From the NCBI GenBank assembly GCA_965220745.1, contig CBDCQT010000004.1, forward strand, positions 1-39,173: 39,173 nt of DNA, given 5' to 3'. This stretch comes from Alphaproteobacteria bacterium (lineage in GTDB: Bacteria > Pseudomonadota > Alphaproteobacteria > UBA828). A program made the translations under genes and the position numbers. This document shows, one piece after another, positions 1-6,288 of the stretch; the stretch's first letter is position 1, and each line of letters opens with the position of its first letter. A model generated the notes under the pieces. That model did not search any database. It saw nothing but the letters and a program-made list of their open reading frames with translations, and was not told the origin of the DNA.

Positions 1-19
1 CTTCGGCCCGAATCCCGCC

Positions 20-28
20 TGCTATCAT
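20..28 (+). promoter_or_regulatory. Extended -10 (TGcTATCAT) 6 nt before ATG; likely leaderless promoter, repeated before each Uma2 copy
   Basis: TGCTATCAT-gcagcc-ATG in copies 1 and 3, TGTTATCAT in copy 2; no Shine-Dalgarno. Confidence 0.6.
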
Positions 29-34
29 GCAGCC

Positions 35-769
35 ATGGCCGCTCCGGGCACGCTTGTGGAAGCCCTCACCGAACCGGACGCAGGACAACCGGTGGAGTAC
101 CCGTACTCCGACGGCAAGGTCCTGATGGAGACGGACCCGCATGCGCGGTCGATCATTGACATGCGTTGTCAGCTGGACACGCATTTCCAGGCCCGGCAAG
201 ACGCCTATGTGGCAGGCAGCATGGCGCTGTACTACCGCCAAGGCGACCCCGCGGCCGTGGTAGTGCCGGACGTGTTCGTCGTGCTGGGCGCTTTGCACAA
301 GGAGGCGCGCAAGTCGTATCTGCTCTGGGAAGAGGGCGGCGTGGCACCGAGCTTCGTGGTGGAGGTGGCGTCGCAGTCCACGAGCCGTCGCGACGCGACA
401 AGCAAGCGCGCCACGTACGAGCGGATGGGGGTGCATGAATACTGGCGCTTCGACCCGCTGGGCGAGTTGATCGCGGGGCGGCTGGCGGGCTGGCGGCTGG
501 CCAGTGGTCGCTACGAGCGGGTGCGGGCTGTGCGAGCGGAAGGCTGGCACCGGAGCGAGGCACTGGGGCTGGAGTTGCGGGCGGAGCGGTGGCTGCTGCG
601 CTTCCATGATCCACGGCTGGGGCGGGACATGCCGACGCACGCAGAAGCGGTGCGGGAGCGGGATGAGGCGGTTCTGGCGCGCGACAGAGTGGTGCGGGAG
701 CGCGACGAGGCGAATCAACGGATCCGCGAATTGGAAGCGCGACTGCGGTTGTCCGACAAATCCGCATAG
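35..769 (+). CDS. Uma2 family (DUF820) PD-(D/E)xK endonuclease, copy 1, 244 aa
   Basis: YPYSDG..METDPH N-terminus, VPDVFVV, VVEVAS.ST...D...K...Y..MGV.EYWRFDP motifs, C-terminal coiled coil. Confidence 0.9.
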   Translation: MAAPGTLVEALTEPDAGQPVEYPYSDGKVLMETDPHARSIIDMRCQLDTHFQARQDAYVAGSMALYYRQGDPAAVVVPDVFVVLGALHKEARKSYLLWEEGGVAPSFVVEVASQSTSRRDATSKRATYERMGVHEYWRFDPLGELIAGRLAGWRLASGRYERVRAVRAEGWHRSEALGLELRAERWLLRFHDPRLGRDMPTHAEAVRERDEAVLARDRVVRERDEANQRIRELEARLRLSDKSA

Positions 770-821
770 GATACCAGCGTTCGGCGCGGTCTCCGGCCAA
801 CCGCCTAGCGACTGGACATAC

Positions 822-851
822 TTGACACAGGCACGGTGTTCTGTGTAGAAC
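822..851 (+). promoter_or_regulatory. Putative sigma70 promoter of the transposase gene
   Basis: TTGACA (822-827), 18 nt, TAGAAC (846-851) preceded by TGTG; overlapped by inverted repeat ACACAG/CTGTGT. Confidence 0.5.
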
Positions 852-858
852 GGGAGTA

Positions 859-1569
859 GTGCGGGTAGGGCTCCGCATCTTCCGTCCGAAGACGATCACT
901 TGGCTGCGCGAGGCCTTGCTGCAGGGCCAGCTGTCGCGGGCGGCCTTGGGGCGCGGGGTCTGCGAGCAGGACGACTGGCGCAATCCCAAGGGCGAGTATT
1001 GCACGGCCTCGGCGCGCAAGGCGCTGCCCGAGTTGGCCGCCCAGCTGGGCCTGCCGCTGCCGGCCGCCCAGCCGGGGCCGCCCGCCGGCGGCCCACGCTC
1101 CAGCGCGGACCCGTCATTGCCAGCGGCCAGCTTCCGCGGCTCGCTGCAGGAACTCGGCAAGGTGCGCGTGAGTCTGGCCAGTTCCGCCGAGCAGCGGCGG
1201 CAGTGCGCCGCCCTGCTCGACCAGCACCATCCGCTGGGCTCGGCCCGCGCTCCCGGCTGTCGGCTGAGCTATCTGCTCAGCGCCGCGTGCGGGCCGCTGG
1301 GCGTGCTCTCGTTCGTGGCGGCGCCGTTCCGGCTGGGGCCGCGCGATGCCTTCCTGCAGTGGGACGAGCGCACGCGCGGAGCGCACATCGAACGCGTCCT
1401 GAACAACGATCGCTTCCTGCTCGTGCCGGGCGTGCAGGTGCCGCACCTGGCCTCGCACGTGCTGGGCCGGGCCATCCGGGCGCTGGCCCGGGACTGGCAG
1501 CAGGCGCACGGGGTGTTGCCTTGGCTGGTGGAAACGTGCGTGGACAGCGCGCGCCCGGGCACGAGTTAA
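859..1569 (+). CDS. DUF4338 (PF14236, DruA-like) N-terminal portion
   Basis: SRAALGRGVCEQDDWRNPKG, HHPLG, RDAFLQW, NNDRFLLVP.V.VPHLASHVLG, DWQQAHG..PWLVETCVD motifs. Confidence 0.75.
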   Translation: MRVGLRIFRPKTITWLREALLQGQLSRAALGRGVCEQDDWRNPKGEYCTASARKALPELAAQLGLPLPAAQPGPPAGGPRSSADPSLPAASFRGSLQELGKVRVSLASSAEQRRQCAALLDQHHPLGSARAPGCRLSYLLSAACGPLGVLSFVAAPFRLGPRDAFLQWDERTRGAHIERVLNNDRFLLVPGVQVPHLASHVLGRAIRALARDWQQAHGVLPWLVETCVDSARPGTS

Positions 1570-1590
1570 AAGGCGGCCGGCTGGCAGTGC

Positions 1591-3162
1591 GTGGGACACA
1601 CACAGGGGCAGCCGCCGGGAGCGGGCGCGGCGGGCGCGGCGAAGGCGGTCTGGCTGCTCGGTTTGGAGCCGGACTGGCAGCCCAAGCTGAGCCAGCAGCC
1701 GCAGCGCAAGCTGGGCCAGTACCCGGAGCTGGTGCTGGAGGAGGAGGCCAACTGGGCGCGCAGGGAGTACCTGCGTTCGGACCTGCCGGACGGGCGCTTG
1801 CGACAGCGGCTGGAGCAGATGGGGCAGAGCTGGGAGCGGCACCCGGGCGAGGCTCTGCCGGCGATCTTTCCGCACGAGGCCGAACTGCGGGCGGCGACGC
1901 GCCTGCTGCACAATGGCAGGGTGAGCGACAAGGACATTCTGCAACCGCATCGGGAGGCCTTGCTGGAGCGGGTGCAGGAGGAGTCGACGGTGTTGCTGGT
2001 GCAGGACACCACGACGCTGAACTACACGCAGCTGAAGGATTGCACGAGCGGGTTGGGGCCGTTAAAGGACCGCGCCAGCAGTGCGCGCGGGCTGTTCGTG
2101 CACGCGGCGGTGGGATTCACCGCAGGCGGGCGTCCGCTGGGGGTGAGCGGTCTGGAGCAGTGGGCGCGGCCGTTGCAGGACCCGGGCCGGGAGGCGGAGC
2201 GCGAGAAGGAGAGCCAGCGCTGGTTCCGGGGGTTGGAGCAGGGCCAGGAACTGGGGCGCTGCAGTCCGCAGACGCGGGTGGTGGTGGTGGGCGACCGCGA
2301 GAGCGACATTTTCGGTTTGTTCGAGCAACAGGCGGAACGTCGGCAGGAGGCCGGGTTGCTGGTGCGGGTGCATTTGGGGCGGCAGCGCAAGGTACGGGCG
2401 TGGGACGCGGCGTTCGCGGCGGAGATGATCCGGCCGATCGAGGCGCAGCCGGACTTTGAAGAGGTGCTGGTGAGTGGCCGCAAGGTGGAGATCGACTCGC
2501 AAGGGGGGCAGCGGGCGCGGGAAAAGCGCACGGCCGTGACGGAGATCCGGATCGGGCGGGTGGAGTTGCTGCCGCCGCAGGGGCAGGCCGGGCAGGCGCA
2601 GCCGTTGCCAGTGTGGCTGGTGCGGGTGCTGGAGCCGGACCCGCCAGCCGGGGAAGATGGCTTGGAGTGGCTGCTGCTGTGCAGCGAGGGGGCGGCGACA
2701 GCACAGTGGGCCGAGCGGATCGTGGGCTGGTACGAGCGGCGCTGGGCGATCGAGGAGTATTTCCGGCTGCTCAAGAGCGGCACGCGCATTGAGGACCGGC
2801 GCTTGCGGGACGCGGAGGCGCTGGGCAAGTGCTTGGTGTTCGACGCGATCACGGCCTGGAGAGTGTTCAGCTTGGAGCGCTACGCGCGGGACGCGCCGGA
2901 CACGCCGGCTCAGGAGGTGCTCACGGCGGACGAGCTGGCCGTGATCGAGGCCGTGACGGAGGCGGAGCGCTTGCGACCGCCGCGGGAACGCGGCCAGCCG
3001 GTGGGAGCGGGCATTCGCAGCTGGGTGCTGCTGCTGGCGCGCATGCGGGGCTGGCGTCCGAAGAAACACCGGGAACTGCCGGGCAACGAAGTGCTGTGGC
3101 AGGCGTACCGGCAGCTGCAAACGATGGTGCGCTACCGGCAGACGCTGCGGGGGCCGCCGTAG
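1591..3162 (+). CDS. IS4/Tn5-type DDE transposase portion
   Basis: N-terminal WA..E...DLPDGRL..RL DNA-binding region, VQDTT, EKESQRW, VGDRESD, IS4 YREK signature Y-ER-R-WAI-E-EYFRLL-K, C-terminal LARMRGW...PG..VLW dimerisation motif; independent start doubtful. Confidence 0.85.
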   Translation: MGHTQGQPPGAGAAGAAKAVWLLGLEPDWQPKLSQQPQRKLGQYPELVLEEEANWARREYLRSDLPDGRLRQRLEQMGQSWERHPGEALPAIFPHEAELRAATRLLHNGRVSDKDILQPHREALLERVQEESTVLLVQDTTTLNYTQLKDCTSGLGPLKDRASSARGLFVHAAVGFTAGGRPLGVSGLEQWARPLQDPGREAEREKESQRWFRGLEQGQELGRCSPQTRVVVVGDRESDIFGLFEQQAERRQEAGLLVRVHLGRQRKVRAWDAAFAAEMIRPIEAQPDFEEVLVSGRKVEIDSQGGQRAREKRTAVTEIRIGRVELLPPQGQAGQAQPLPVWLVRVLEPDPPAGEDGLEWLLLCSEGAATAQWAERIVGWYERRWAIEEYFRLLKSGTRIEDRRLRDAEALGKCLVFDAITAWRVFSLERYARDAPDTPAQEVLTADELAVIEAVTEAERLRPPRERGQPVGAGIRSWVLLLARMRGWRPKKHRELPGNEVLWQAYRQLQTMVRYRQTLRGPP

Positions 3163-3750
3163 GGATCGTCAGCGGGAGTGCAGAACGCTCTCCTGGATGC
3201 ACTGTCGCGGGTCGGGAATCCTCTCGCCGGCCTTGCTGCGGGCCGCGTCGGGAACCGCTCCTTGGCGCAACTCGAAGCCTGTCCGATGGTCGCCGGTGAT
3301 CCGTGTTCCCATCCATTGCGTGACAGCCGCACGGGGCCCCTGCGCAACGCAATGACCGGCCCGGCAACGCTTGCCGGGTGCCCCAACCCGGTGCCGCCAG
3401 ATGCCTGCGTCTGCCGCACTGCGCCGGTCTGCCTCTTCTCGCTCTGCAGTATTCGGTATTCGGACGGTCCATCCGGCATCATCTAGACCGAATGTGAGCA
3501 GCAGCCCGCCAATGTCTCCAATCTCCCAGCATTAACAATGTCCGCTCGCTAGGCCAACCGCTGAGACAACACCGCGCAGGACTTGGTGGCCCAAATTGTG
3601 GCTACGCTTCCTAGGCAGACGGCGACCGGTTGCCGCCTTCTTTGGCGAAAGACGCTAGATCTCAGCCTCCTGCTCCGAGGGAAGCGGACCTGGCCACCAT
3701 GCCCGAACTGGCTGCGCTCCGGCCCCAATCCCGCCTGTTATCATGCAGCC

Positions 3751-4443
3751 ATGGCCGGTCCCGGCACGCTTGTGGAAGCCCTCACCGAACCGGACGCGGG
3801 ACAACCGGTGGAGTACCCCTACTCCGACGGCAAGGTCCTGATGGAGACCGACCCGCATGCGCGGTCGATCATCGAGATGCGTTGTCAGCTGGATACGCAT
3901 TTCAAGGCCCGGCAAGACGCCTATGTGGCCGGCAGCATGGCGCTGTACTACCGCCAAGGCGACCCCGCGGCCGTGGTGGTGCCGGACGTGTTCGTGGTGC
4001 TGGGCGCTTTGCACAAGCAGGCGCGCAAGTCGTATCTGCTCTGGGAGGAGGGCGGCGTGGTGCCGAGCTTCGTGGTGGAGGTGGCGTCGCGATCCACGAG
4101 CCGACGCGACGCGACCACCAAGCGCGCCACGTACGAGCGGATGGGGGTGCACGAATACTGGCGCTTCGACCCGCTGGGCGAGCTGATCGCGGGGCGGCTG
4201 GAGGGCTGGCGGCTGGCCGGTGGCCGCTACGAGCGGGTGCGGGCTGTGCGAGCGGCTGGCTGGCACCGCAGCGAGGCGCTGGGGCTGGAGTTGCGGGCCG
4301 AGCGGTGGCTGCTGCGCTTTCATGATCCACGGCAGGGGCGGGACCTGCCGACGCACGCAGAAGCGGTGCGGGAGCGGGATGAGGCGAATCAACGGATCCG
4401 CGCATTGGAAGCGCGACTGCGGTTGTCCGACAAGTCCGCATAG
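3751..4443 (+). CDS. Uma2 family endonuclease, copy 2, 230 aa
   Basis: Near-identical to copy 1; start set by homology rather than the ORF-track start at 3583. Confidence 0.9.
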   Translation: MAGPGTLVEALTEPDAGQPVEYPYSDGKVLMETDPHARSIIEMRCQLDTHFKARQDAYVAGSMALYYRQGDPAAVVVPDVFVVLGALHKQARKSYLLWEEGGVVPSFVVEVASRSTSRRDATTKRATYERMGVHEYWRFDPLGELIAGRLEGWRLAGGRYERVRAVRAAGWHRSEALGLELRAERWLLRFHDPRQGRDLPTHAEAVRERDEANQRIRALEARLRLSDKSA

Positions 4444-4667
4444 GATTCCAGCGTTCGGCGCGGTCTCCGGCCAACCGCTGAGACAACACCGCGCAGGACT
4501 CGGTGGCCCAAATTACGGCTACGCTTCCTAGGCAGACAGCGACCGGTTGCCGCGTTCTTTGGCGCAAGACGCTAGATCTCAGCCGCCTGCTCCGAGGGAA
4601 CCGGACCTGGCCAGCAGGCCCGAACTGGCTGCGCTCCGGCCCCAATCCCGCCTGCTATCATGCAGCC

Positions 4668-5381
4668 ATGGCCGGTCCCGGCACGCTTGTGGAAGCCTTC
4701 ACCGAACCGGACGCGGGACAACCGGTGGAGTACCCCTACTCCGACGGCAAGGTCCTGATGGAGACCGACCCGCATGCGCGGTCGATCATCGAGATGCGTT
4801 GTCAGCTGGATACGCATTTCAAGGCCCGGCGAGACGCCTATGTGGCCGGCAGCATGGCGCTGTACTACCGCCAAGGCGACCCCGCGACCGTGGTGGTGCC
4901 GGACGTGTTCGTGGTGCTGGGCGCTTTGCACAAGCAGGCGCGCAAGTCGTATCTGCTCTGGGAGGAGGGCGGCGTGGCACCGAGCTTCGTGGTGGAGGTG
5001 GCGTCGCCGTCCACGAGCCGACGCGACGCGACGGGCAAGCGCGCGATTTACGAGCGGATGGGGGTGCATGAATACTGGCGCTTCGACCCGCTGGGCGAGT
5101 TGATCGCGGGGCGGCTGGCGGGCTGGCGGCTGGCCGGTGGTCGCTACGAGCGGGTGCGGGCTGTGCGAGCGGAAGGCTGGCACCGGAGCGAGGCACTGGG
5201 GCTGGAGTTGCGGGCGGAGCGCTGGCTGCTGCGCTTCCATGATCCACGGCAGGGGCGGGACATGCTGACGCACTCGGAGCTCGGCGAGGCCCTCGAGGCA
5301 GCCGCGAGCGAGCGCGACGAAGCGAATCGACGGGTCCGCGAATTGGAAGCGCGACTGCGGTTGTCCGACAAGTCCGCTTAG
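4668..5381 (+). CDS. Uma2 family endonuclease, copy 3, 237 aa
   Basis: Near-identical to copies 1 and 2, with a different C-terminal heptad. Confidence 0.9.
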   Translation: MAGPGTLVEAFTEPDAGQPVEYPYSDGKVLMETDPHARSIIEMRCQLDTHFKARRDAYVAGSMALYYRQGDPATVVVPDVFVVLGALHKQARKSYLLWEEGGVAPSFVVEVASPSTSRRDATGKRAIYERMGVHEYWRFDPLGELIAGRLAGWRLAGGRYERVRAVRAEGWHRSEALGLELRAERWLLRFHDPRQGRDMLTHSELGEALEAAASERDEANRRVRELEARLRLSDKSA

Positions 5382-5406
5382 GATTCCAGCGTTCGGCGCG
5401 GTCTCC

Positions 5407-5555
5407 GGCCGACCCCGCACTCGATCTGCTTGGGTCGGCCTCAAGACTCTTACGACATCGGAGCTTAAACAGTGTCGCAGCGGCCATTGTCGTCGTGACC
5501 TCAGCAGGTTTGGATAAGCTGGAACCAGTCTCGGGCTTGAGGCCGAGCAGCGTGC
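5407..5555. other. Structured intergenic element with nested and alternative inverted repeats
   Basis: TCGGCCTCAAG (5435-5445) / CTTGAGGCCGA (5536-5546) perfect 11-bp IR; GGCCGACCC (5407-5415) / GGGTCGGCC (5432-5440). Confidence 0.45.
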
Positions 5556-5565
5556 CTACAGGATC

Positions 5566-6288
5566 ATGATCATTCCCTGTATCGACCTGATGGGTGGGAA
5601 GGTCGTCCAGCTTGTCCGGGGCCGCGAGAAGGCCCTTGAGGGCGAGTCCCCGGACGCCATGCTGGAGCGCTTTTCGGCGTTCCCAGTAATCCAAGTCATC
5701 GATCTGGACCAAGCCATCGGGCAGGGTTCAAACCTGCCCATCGTGCGGAGCATCGCTGGCCGAGCGCGCACCTGGGTGGGTGGCGGCGTCAGGACGCTGG
5801 AACGTGCCGAAGACTTGGTCCGCAGCGGCGCCGAGCGGGTCATCGTCGGCACAGCCGCCTTTTGTGACAACGGCCCGAACAGCGATTTCCTCGAAGCGCT
5901 AGCCCGAAACATCGGGCGCGAGCGACTGATCATTTCTCTGGATTCCATGAACGGTCGCATCGTGATCAAGGGCTGGCGCGAATCCACGGACCTGGCGGCT
6001 GAAGAGGTCATTTCCCGCTTTGAGCCGTACTGCGGCGCGTTCCTGTGCACCTACGTCGACAAAGAGGGCACGATGCAGGGCACTGACTTGGACTGGTACC
6101 GGCGGTTGCGGGCGGCAACAGACCACGAGATCACGGCCGCAGGAGGGATCGCCAGCATCTCGGAGATCCGCACACTTGTGGATATCGGCGTGCATGCAGC
6201 CTTGGGCATGGCGGTCTATACCGGACATCTCAAGCTTGAGAAACTGGCCGAGCTGCAGCGCCTCAGCACCAGCTCGGCAGCCGGTTGA
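5566..6288 (+). CDS. hisA: HisA-family phosphoribosylformimino-5-aminoimidazole carboxamide ribotide isomerase
   Basis: IIPCIDLMGGKVVQL, IDLD.A, VGGGVR, IVGTAA, T.VDKEGTMQG.D, AAGGI, LGMAVYTG. Confidence 0.88.
   Translation: MIIPCIDLMGGKVVQLVRGREKALEGESPDAMLERFSAFPVIQVIDLDQAIGQGSNLPIVRSIAGRARTWVGGGVRTLERAEDLVRSGAERVIVGTAAFCDNGPNSDFLEALARNIGRERLIISLDSMNGRIVIKGWRESTDLAAEEVISRFEPYCGAFLCTYVDKEGTMQGTDLDWYRRLRAATDHEITAAGGIASISEIRTLVDIGVHAALGMAVYTGHLKLEKLAELQRLSTSSAAG

What the first reader, a model, noticed from the sequence alone, without database searches (positions are those of the whole stretch)
629..5381. C-terminal coiled coil varies in exact heptads and begins at a possible internal start (Rpn-like intragenic antitoxin?)
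Seen: lengths 244/230/237 aa differ by multiples of 7. Copy 1 reads AVRERDE-AVLARDR-VVRERDE-ANQRIRE-LEARLRL, copy 2 AVRERDE-ANQRIRA-LEARLRL, copy 3 LGEALEA-AASERDE-ANRRVRE-LEARLRL. The variable tail starts at an in-frame ATG (629, 5262; CTG at 4345) preceded by (A/T)GGGGCGGGAC, giving potential 46/32/39-aa peptides. Known: Rpn-family PD-(D/E)xK toxins are neutralised by separately translated, variable C-terminal peptides. Inference: an analogous toxin/internal-antitoxin or oligomer-specificity code in Uma2 proteins, which I do not know to have been described.
Basis: partly seen in the sequence, partly recalled or inferred. Interest (0 to 1): 0.8.

Follow-up and report, generated by a model that had tools for sequence, protein, structure and literature searches.

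The report
Uma2 nuclease genes with heptad-stepped tails
Three neighbouring copies of an uncharacterised nuclease-like gene end in one long helix whose length changes only in whole seven-residue steps, most likely a pairing stalk, and nothing yet shows that the helix is also made on its own as an antidote.

Summary
The window carries three Uma2 (PF05685) paralogues of 244, 230 and 237 aa. Their tails differ by 14 and 7 residues and start at ATG 629, CTG 4345 and ATG 5262.

In relatives, the spacing between two conserved anchors is a multiple of 7 in 77 of 77 proteins. Tail length falls in one residue class in 34 of 38 and 14 of 14 DNA-derived tails. Every tail repeat found in 72 of 150 distant representatives has period 7, 14 or 21.

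AlphaFold2 models the tail as one helix (202-242; 202-284 in a longer relative). A homodimer model pairs the two tails as a parallel, in-register coiled coil (score 0.81, best control 0.00).

The Rpn-like internal antitoxin idea is not supported, but it is not excluded:
- The Met replaces a conserved structural Leu (0 Met in 83 distant relatives).
- The codon is CTG in 5 of 52 clade members.
- I found no synonymous constraint, accessible-RNA dip or promoter match upstream.
- The SD-like run is matched or beaten by 12-20% of internal background sites.

This scan had already noted heptad-stepped Uma2 tails on other DNA. My literature searches found no description of them.

The parts
35..769 (+). 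Uma2 copy 1, 244 aa. It lies 34 nt from the start of the contig, so the array may continue upstream.
   Evidence: the window is all of contig C4. AlphaFold2 model: pLDDT 93, globular domain plus helix 202-242.
629..769 (+). Tail of copy 1: in-frame ATG 629, then 46 codons. M-P-T, then a helix of four variable heptads plus the conserved cap ANQRIRELEARLRLSDKSA.
642..712 (+). Degenerate 21-nt tandem repeat (3.4 copies, 67% matches) that encodes the heptads of copy 1. The 42-nt stretch absent from copy 2 lies between two similar 24-nt segments.
803..3554 (+). IS4-family insertion sequence that splits the array about 40 nt after the stop of copy 1. It has 17-nt terminal inverted repeats at 803-819 and 3538-3554, a DruA-like (PF14236) ORF at 859-1569 and a transposase at 1591-3162.
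   Evidence: NF033590, 286.7 bits against a cut-off of 160; the sequence after 3552 resumes the family's 3' flank.
3751..4443 (+). Uma2 copy 2, 230 aa
4345..4443 (+). Tail of copy 2 (32 codons). The codon at the tail start is CTG, not a usual start codon.
4455..4470 (+). Small hairpin just after the stop codon, inside a 3' flank that is conserved among dispersed family copies.
   Evidence: 6 predicted pairs, 3 of them with compensatory changes, in 19 sequences. One search shows the flank conservation.
4668..5381 (+). Uma2 copy 3, 237 aa
5262..5381 (+). Tail of copy 3: in-frame ATG 5262, then 39 codons.

Best explanation
The three genes are tandem paralogues of the Uma2/DUF820 predicted PD-(D/E)xK nuclease family. 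Each protein has a globular nuclease-fold domain (residues about 20-198) followed by one long C-terminal helix.

Proposed mechanism:
- Two chains dimerise through the globular domain, and their helices zip into a parallel, in-register two-stranded coiled coil.
- The coil is made of weak, highly charged heptads (mostly Arg at position a and Ala at position d).
- It is closed by a conserved canonical zipper cap (I230, L233, L237).
- New lengths arise when whole 21-nt units are gained or lost by unequal recombination or slippage.
- Only multiples of seven survive, because the register must fit both the globular dimer at one end and the cap at the other.

Met199 sits in the loop just before the helix. 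It is a clade-specific substitute for a conserved Leu, not a conserved internal start.

What is shown and what is inferred:
- Shown by computation: family membership, the heptad quantisation, the helix prediction and the dimer model.
- Inferred: that selection and not only mutation enforces the sevens. I infer this because repeat units of unrelated sequence in distant subfamilies are all 7, 14 or 21 aa.
- Also inferred: that differing heptad counts keep co-resident paralogues, whose globular domains are nearly identical, from forming mixed dimers.
For: Family and fold:
- Pfam Uma2 at E 1.7e-24 to 3e-23.
- Foldseek top hits are the Uma2-type structures 6okh, 9y1l, 1wdj, 3ot2 and 3ijm (E 5.6e-8 to 6.5e-4). 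All are 146-186 residues, too short to hold such a tail.

Heptad rule:
- 77 of 77 anchored proteins, 34 of 38 genome tails and 14 of 14 metagenome tails.
- The second array in contig C6 has tails of 87, 87 and 101 aa.
- Tail repeats were detected in 74 of 120 close proteins and 72 of 150 representatives that are at most 50% identical to each other. Every detected period is 7, 14, 21 or 28. The shuffled control gave 0 of 150.

Structure models:
- AlphaFold2 gives copy 1 mean pLDDT 93.0 with a single helix 202-242.
- A 286-aa relative has mean pLDDT 90.9 with a single helix 202-284.
- The homodimer model scored 0.77, 0.82 and 0.81 (median 0.81). The best of 3 controls scored 0.00.
- The three runs share at least 91% of their contacts, and the partner's pLDDT is at least 83.
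- In the tool's calibration, 20 of 30 proteins solved as pairs of one chain reached the mark, against 1 of 23 solved as single chains.
- Self-contacts fall at 202, 205, 209, 212, 216, 219, 223, 226, 230 and 233, which is an a/d ladder.
- The profile of 498 heptads from 77 proteins gives position a = R 56%, L 22%, H 15% and position d = A 67%.

Stability: orthologues whose flanking DNA is 95% identical keep the tail length. L028 has 39 aa like copy 3.
Against: - The dimer is a model, not a measurement. The tool warns that a pass can come from likeness to solved complexes. Uma2 structures are deposited with A and B chains, though none of the matched chains is long enough to hold such a tail.
- Arg at position a and Ala at position d make a weak core. 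The repeat part might be a single stable helix in solution, with only the cap pairing.
- Quantisation could come from the 21-nt mutational unit alone, without selection on register.
- Within genomes, tail lengths are not clearly over-dispersed. One chromosome has 7 copies with 6 distinct lengths, and another has 8 with 6. That is close to what random draws from about ten classes would give.
- No function is known for any Uma2 protein, so what the stalk is for remains open.
Confidence: 0.7

Rival explanations
1. Rpn-like gene within a gene. The tail is also translated on its own from the ATG or TTG at the start of the helix. The free 32-95 aa peptide pairs with the tail of the full-length nuclease and holds it inactive, and the heptad number makes the pairing cognate-specific.
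For: - The codon at the tail start is ATG or TTG in 47 of 52 clade members.
- The repeats begin 6-20 residues after it. In RpnS they begin 8 to 20 residues after the start (PMC10400941 section 12).
- Both families are PD-(D/E)xK proteins with a helix whose short, charged repeats vary in number.
- Makarova et al. 2009 call Uma2 a likely solo toxin found in cassettes of paralogues (PMC2701414, passage read).
- Knizewski et al. 2007 report a STRING neighbourhood and fusion link between YhgA-like COG5464 and COG4636/DUF820 (PMC1913061, passage read). That YhgA is RpnA is my recall.
- The Uma2 core hits PADLOC phage-defence candidate PDC-S03 at E 4e-16 to 2e-15.
- The tail-to-tail pairing in the dimer model would also allow a free tail to bind.
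Against: - CTG occupies the site in 5 of 52, including copy 2 of this window, in about four lineages.
- There is no Met in 83 distant relatives. The column is a conserved hydrophobic residue.
- The C6 array of the same genome has ACC or TTC there.
- No synonymous constraint appears upstream.
- The SD-like energy is unremarkable: 12-20% of background sites are as strong.
- TTG is kept just as well at an unrelated Leu codon 18 codons upstream, in 23 of 25 genes.
- There is no dip in local RNA structure and no sigma-70-type match.
- Only 2 tail-only ORFs were found in 5.8 billion proteins. One is identical in sequence to the tail read from locus L019, and the other reads on past the usual stop.
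Confidence: 0.1
2. Single-helix spacer or ruler. The charged heptads form a stiff single alpha helix that sets a distance between the nuclease domain and the conserved C-terminal tip. The tip binds some partner, and the helix length tunes the reach.
For: - Each heptad holds about two Arg and three acidic residues and has only a weak hydrophobic seam.
- AlphaFold2 keeps the helix straight and confident in a single chain.
- The last 20 residues are far more conserved than the repeats.
Against: - A single helix has no need for exact sevens, yet periods of 7, 14 or 21 hold in 72 of the 72 distant representatives that have repeats.
- The dimer model places the a and d positions in contact along the whole tail.
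- No partner gene travels with the family in the loci I looked at.
Confidence: 0.12
3. Neutral or contingency-type repeat instability. The 21-nt units slip often, and length is free to drift without functional meaning.
For: - Lengths span 32 to 95 aa within one clade.
- The copy 1 versus copy 2 indel is flanked by similar 24-nt segments.
Against: - The DNA repeats are degenerate, with 67% matches.
- Orthologues at 95% flank identity keep their length.
- Repeat units of unrelated sequence in distant subfamilies all obey the sevens. This points to a structural filter, not one unstable unit.
Confidence: 0.06

Closest known systems
Uma2 / DUF820 / COG4636 / TT1808 family (Pfam PF05685; structures 1wdj, 3ot2, 6okh, 9y1l, 3ijm)
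   Same: - The domain is above the Pfam cut-off and has the same fold.
- The conserved acidic residues, Ser and Lys are kept (D79, E100, E110, S113, K124).
- The genes occur as cassettes of paralogues, as described by Makarova et al. 2009.
   Different: The matched chains of the solved members are 146-186 residues, too short to hold such a tail. The rule that the tail changes in whole heptads was not found in the papers my two searches returned.
Rpn (YhgA-like) genes-within-genes toxin-antitoxin systems of E. coli and others (Zhong et al. 2023, PMC10400941)
   Same: - Both are PD-(D/E)xK-superfamily proteins.
- Both have a C-terminal helix that carries short, mostly charged repeats of variable number.
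- In Rpn the helix is a dimerisation surface. Here a model predicts the same.
- A candidate in-frame start lies a few residues before the repeats.
   Different: - The Pfam family is different. Only PF05685 matched.
- The repeat unit is 7 aa, not 4.
- The tail is one helix and not a three-helix bundle.
- The internal start is not conserved and has no supporting signal.
- Neither toxicity nor a small product has been shown.
Coiled-coil stalks whose length changes by whole heptads, as in other variable-length coiled-coil proteins (general knowledge, recalled)
   Same: Indels are restricted to multiples of seven, which keeps the a/d register continuous.
   Different: The stalk is short (27-90 residues), cytoplasmic and attached to a nuclease-fold dimer. 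Arg occupies most a positions.

Membership tests
Uma2 / DUF820 (PF05685) | Match to the family profile above the curated cut-off | tested here: met
   82.6, 83.8 and 86.7 bits against a cut-off of 27
Uma2 / DUF820 (PF05685) | Restriction-endonuclease-like fold of TT1808 type | tested here: met
   Foldseek against PDB: 6okh_A at 5.6e-8, 9y1l_A at 1.2e-7, 1wdj_A at 4.3e-6, 3ot2_A at 5.5e-6, using a model with pLDDT 93
Uma2 / DUF820 (PF05685) | Conserved putative active-site residues | tested here: met
   D79 and S113 are invariant. E100, E110, D120 and K124 are at least 90% conserved in 124 sequences and are present in all three copies. Nuclease activity itself cannot be tested here.
Uma2 / DUF820 (PF05685) | Occurrence as cassettes of paralogues | tested here: met
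   Three copies in this window and three more in contig C6. The description is in PMC2701414.
Rpn genes-within-genes toxin-antitoxin | Rpn / YhgA-like nuclease domain | tested here: not met
   The Pfam scan returned only PF05685 for all three copies
Rpn genes-within-genes toxin-antitoxin | Internal translation start with a ribosome-binding site that yields the C-terminal small protein | tested here: inconclusive
   ATG or TTG in 47 of 52 and CTG in 5. Not conserved outside the clade. The SD-like energy is within the background. No constraint or accessibility signal was found. The product itself cannot be tested with these tools.
Rpn genes-within-genes toxin-antitoxin | Internal promoter for a short transcript | tested here: inconclusive
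   No sigma-70-type match anywhere in 1-5700. The scan covers one promoter type only. The RNA runs were available only as contigs, which cannot show transcript starts.
Rpn genes-within-genes toxin-antitoxin | Variable number of short repeats in a helix shared by the long and short forms | tested here: met
   The repeats are variable and helical, but the unit is 7 aa and not 4
Rpn genes-within-genes toxin-antitoxin | Long form toxic, short form neutralises it | not testable with these tools
   Needs expression experiments
Parallel two-stranded coiled coil | Heptad periodicity with a continuous a/d seam | tested here: inconclusive
   The periodicity is strict. The seam is R/L/H at position a and A at position d in the repeats, and canonical I-L-L only in the cap.
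Parallel two-stranded coiled coil | Two chains pair in register | tested here: met
   By model only: score 0.81 against a best control of 0.00, with i-to-i contacts at the a and d positions
PADLOC phage-defence candidate PDC-S03 | Match to the candidate's profiles | tested here: met
   E 4.4e-16 to 2.1e-15 over residues 17-146. That library has no curated cut-off, and a defence function has not been shown.

The most novel reading that the evidence does not exclude
Uma2 cassettes may be self-neutralising nuclease toxins of the Rpn kind. In that case the helical tail, made on its own from the ATG or TTG at the helix start, would pair with the tail of the full-length enzyme. The number of heptads would act as a lock that lets each paralogue be silenced only by its own tail. 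That would explain why this long-suspected 'solo toxin' family has no separate antitoxin gene.
Probability: 0.1. Interest if true: 0.85.

Novelty: new variant of a known kind. Interest (0 to 1): 0.5.

Why it matters
Uma2/DUF820 is a very large family. Its members are highly expanded in cyanobacteria and occur in Thermus, and here they appear in sponge-associated Acidobacteria. No function has been demonstrated for any member. A 2009 survey called it a likely solo toxin, and PADLOC lists a relative as a defence candidate.

A strict, family-wide rule that the C-terminal helix changes only in sevens gives a concrete structural handle. It predicts a dimeric stalk whose length is under selection. 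It also suggests simple experiments, such as adding or removing one heptad, or mixing paralogues, that could show whether the tail sets partner specificity.

If the tail were also made separately, the Rpn principle of an antitoxin inside a toxin would extend to a second, much larger nuclease family.

Tried and rejected
- RNA evidence. Nine RNA runs held small shares of the stretch (0.06-0.15). I laid four metatranscriptome runs from two studies. They are stored as contigs and gave short pieces 90-99% like the genes. Some contigs run on from about 5278 (just after the tail start) into letters unlike copy 3. I take these for other tail variants but did not translate them. Contigs cannot show a transcript start, strand or level, so this says nothing about an internal start.
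- Tail-only genes. A search of 25-81 aa proteins with the 46-aa tail found 2. One is identical in sequence to the tail read from locus L019. The other reads on past the usual stop. I did not take them as free-standing antitoxin genes.
- TTG excess at the tail-start codon. TTG is used in 14 of 19 Leu cases against 21% gene-wide. I rejected this as evidence because the cases fall into about four TTG and four CTG lineages. Another TTG, 18 codons upstream, is equally conserved (23 of 25).
- Over-dispersion of tail lengths among paralogues of one genome. The counts are close to random draws, so this argues neither way.
- Rfam scan of 1-6000 at E up to 1 gave no match. The consensus scan found no promoter-like site and one terminator-like site, at 3620-3635, fewer than in shuffles.
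- A bZIP-like DNA-binding reading of the tail was rejected. The repeats carry more acidic than basic residues.
- One paper look-up failed on a term format and was not repeated.


Full report
**What is there**

The window is the whole of contig C4 of a 4.8-Mb, 13-contig genome. Its relatives in public collections are labelled Bryobacterales or Terriglobia, which are Acidobacteria.

The first 5.4 kb hold three same-strand paralogues of the Uma2 family (PF05685, 82.6-86.7 bits against a cut-off of 27):
- copy 1 at 35-769, 244 aa
- copy 2 at 3751-4443, 230 aa
- copy 3 at 4668-5381, 237 aa

They are 89-94% identical. All length differences fall in one block of the C-terminal tail.

An IS4-family element splits copy 1 from copy 2, about 40 nt after the stop of copy 1. 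It has 17-nt inverted ends at 803-819 and 3538-3554, a DruA-like ORF and a transposase. After the element the family's usual 3' flank resumes, so the three genes were once a plain tandem array.

Copy 1 begins 34 nt from the contig end, so more copies may lie beyond it. A second array of three more distant Uma2 genes (about 40% identity) lies in contig C6.

**The observation**

- the three heptad strings
- ATG at 629 and 5262 and CTG at 4345
- the run (T/A)GGGGCGGGAC before them
- implied peptides of 46, 32 and 39 aa

The 14-residue difference between copies 1 and 2 is a 42-nt stretch lying between two similar 24-nt segments. Tandem Repeats Finder sees a degenerate 21-nt repeat at 642-712 (3.4 copies, 67% matches).

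**The rule is general**

Among the 120 best of 476 homologues, 105 lengths fall in three classes mod 7. Both conserved anchors (LRF(H/W)DP and IRELEARLR) were matched by my patterns in 77 of those 120. In all 77 the spacing is a multiple of seven, from 21 to 98 residues. The other 43 were not counted.

From DNA, 34 of 38 tails in genome contigs and 14 of 14 in metagenome contigs have length 4 mod 7. The four exceptions are:
- the same 49-aa tail in two assemblies, which is a 4-residue shift
- one early stop three codons before the usual end
- one frameshifted end

A search of 1.84 billion cluster representatives gave 5604 relatives. Of the best 150, which are at most 50% identical to each other, 72 have a detectable tandem repeat in the last 110 residues. 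All 72 have period 7, 14 or 21, and shuffled tails gave none.

The units differ in sequence between subfamilies; examples are AERQRAE, EQKRLES, QGRLAEQ and a 14-mer AEEQAQREADARRL. The sevens therefore arose many times. That is why I think a structural filter is at work, and not just one unstable DNA unit.

The C6 array of this genome obeys the same rule, with tails of 87, 87 and 101 aa.

**What the tail is**

AlphaFold2 with a 124-row alignment gives copy 1 a mean pLDDT of 93.0. The model has a globular domain and a single helix from 202 to 242. A 286-aa relative gives the same domain and a single helix from 202 to 284 (pLDDT 90.9). Extra heptads therefore lengthen one helix.

Foldseek places the domain with the Uma2-type structures 6okh, 9y1l, 1wdj, 3ot2 and 3ijm. 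These are 146-186 residues long, too short to hold such a tail.

A homodimer model scored 0.77, 0.82 and 0.81 (median 0.81) against 0.00 for the best of three controls:
- The three runs share at least 91% of their contacts.
- The partner's pLDDT is at least 83.
- In the tool's calibration the mark was reached by 20 of 30 proteins solved as pairs of one chain and by 1 of 23 solved as single chains.
- The tool stresses that this supports binding without showing it, and that a pass can reflect likeness to solved complexes.

The interface has two parts. One is a patch of the globular domain (residues 23-64, 91-94, 113-115). The other is a ladder of same-residue contacts at 202, 205, 209, 212, 216, 219, 223, 226, 230 and 233. 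That ladder is the a/d pattern of a parallel in-register coiled coil.

I phased 498 heptads from 77 proteins in this register. Position a is R 56%, L 22%, H 15%, and position d is A 67%. Only the conserved cap has a classical I-L-L seam.

**How it most likely works**

A globular dimer sits at one end and a strong short zipper at the other. Weak charged heptads lie between them. Any insertion that is not a multiple of seven would break the register between the two fixed ends, so only whole heptads persist.

Whole units are supplied by unequal recombination or slippage among 21-nt repeats. The repeats are now degenerate. Two orthologous loci whose flanks are 95% identical to the window keep their tail length (L028, 39 aa, like copy 3). 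So this is not a fast contingency locus.

The globular domains of the three copies are nearly identical. I infer that the count may keep co-resident paralogues from mixing.

I could not test this. Tail lengths within genomes are not clearly more different than chance.

**The internal-antitoxin idea**

In Rpn proteins a small C-terminal protein is translated from an internal start and blocks the toxic long form. It carries 4-aa repeats that begin 8-20 residues after its Met. Adding one repeat breaks cross-neutralisation (PMC10400941; abstract and sections 6 and 12 read).

Three further points make the analogy worth taking seriously:
- Makarova et al. 2009 call Uma2 a likely solo toxin that forms cassettes of paralogues (passage read).
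- Knizewski et al. 2007 note a STRING neighbourhood and fusion link between YhgA-like COG5464 and COG4636/DUF820 (passage read). That YhgA is RpnA is my recall.
- The Uma2 core hits PADLOC defence candidate PDC-S03 at about 1e-15.

The tests I could run gave no positive signal:
- The codon is ATG 33, TTG 14 and CTG 5 of 52. The Leu cases fall into about four TTG and four CTG lineages. A TTG 18 codons upstream is conserved just as well.
- In a 124-row alignment the column is L 92, M 16, V 9, I 6, S 1, with no Met in 83 distant rows.
- The C6 paralogues have ACC or TTC at the equivalent codon.
- Synonymous diversity in the 15 codons before the site is 0.17-0.24 against a gene mean of 0.21. Other stretches fall to 0.06-0.09.
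- Pairing of the upstream 20 nt with the 16S 3' tail of this genome is -7.3 to -8.7 kcal/mol.
- That energy is matched or beaten by 12-20% of 1500 sampled internal in-frame ATG/TTG sites and by 23-33% of 682 crude gene starts.
- Local RNA folding energy at the site equals the gene average (-20.2 against -20.9).
- No sigma-70-type promoter match was found.
- Only two tail-only ORFs exist among 5.8 billion proteins. One matches the tail of a full-length locus and the other reads past the usual stop.

I put this reading at about one in ten. It can only be settled at the bench.

**Comparison and novelty**

The genes are members of Uma2/DUF820 by profile, fold, conserved residues and cassette habit. 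They are not members of the Rpn family, whose domain was not found. They may still work in a similar way.

My searches returned no paper that describes the tail or its heptad rule:
- One search used 'Uma2' with 'endonuclease' (25 papers held both terms and 20 were listed).
- The other asked for at least two of 'Uma2', 'DUF820', 'COG4636', 'coiled-coil' and 'heptad'.
- I read only the passages named above. Subscription journals are not covered by these searches.

This scan has already noted heptad-stepped Uma2 tails in two other genomes (e1-3556100 and e1-4727506), so the rule is not new to the scan. What this finding adds is the Rpn analogy and its test.

**Verdict**

The structural explanation is well supported by models. 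The antitoxin reading is unsupported but remains open. Interest is moderate.

Noticed in passing
window 803-3554: An IS4-family insertion sequence whose transposase ORF (1591-3162) is preceded by a separate ORF with a DruA-like domain (859-1569, PF14236, E 5.7e-17). It has 17-nt terminal inverted repeats. PADLOC gave no hit for either ORF.
   Followed up: partly
G000 contig C8, 745-2376 (-) and 14744-16375 (+): Two identical, inverted copies of a 543-codon open frame that I read as a lipoprotein (an N-terminal hydrophobic stretch ending in a Cys). It has nine tandem EDRDEAI heptads before a beta-rich domain. The same RDEA-type heptad therefore occurs in an unrelated, apparently exported protein of this genome.
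   Followed up: no
G000 contig C6, about 98265-101911 (-): A second tandem array of three Uma2 genes, about 40% identical to the window's copies. Their tails use other heptad units (AVREKQA, AEERANA) and are 87, 87 and 101 aa from the shared anchor.
   Followed up: partly
window 3555-3750 and 4444-4667; loci L007-L037: About 190 nt upstream and at least 95-130 nt downstream of the gene are conserved among copies dispersed around several Bryobacterales chromosomes. They include a small hairpin with compensatory changes right after the stop. Many copies sit at contig ends in fragmented assemblies. The gene thus travels as a unit of about 1.2 kb, whose means of spread is unknown.
   Followed up: partly
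window 15-37, 3731-3753, 4648-4670: The main ATG of all three copies has no SD-like pairing (-1.1 to -2.2 kcal/mol). It is preceded by TATCAT six bases upstream, which could mean a leaderless transcript. I did not test this.
   Followed up: no
L010 3595-3744 and L048 200-349: The only in-frame exception to the heptad rule is a 49-aa tail found in two assemblies. It looks like a 4-residue deletion relative to the 53-aa form, the kind of shift that coiled coils are known to tolerate.
   Followed up: no
window 3500-5500 against runs X1, X2, X5, X6: Short contigs 90-99% like these genes occur in marine and sponge metatranscriptome assemblies from two studies. Some run on from about 5278 into letters unlike copy 3, which I take for other tail variants in those communities.
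   Followed up: partly
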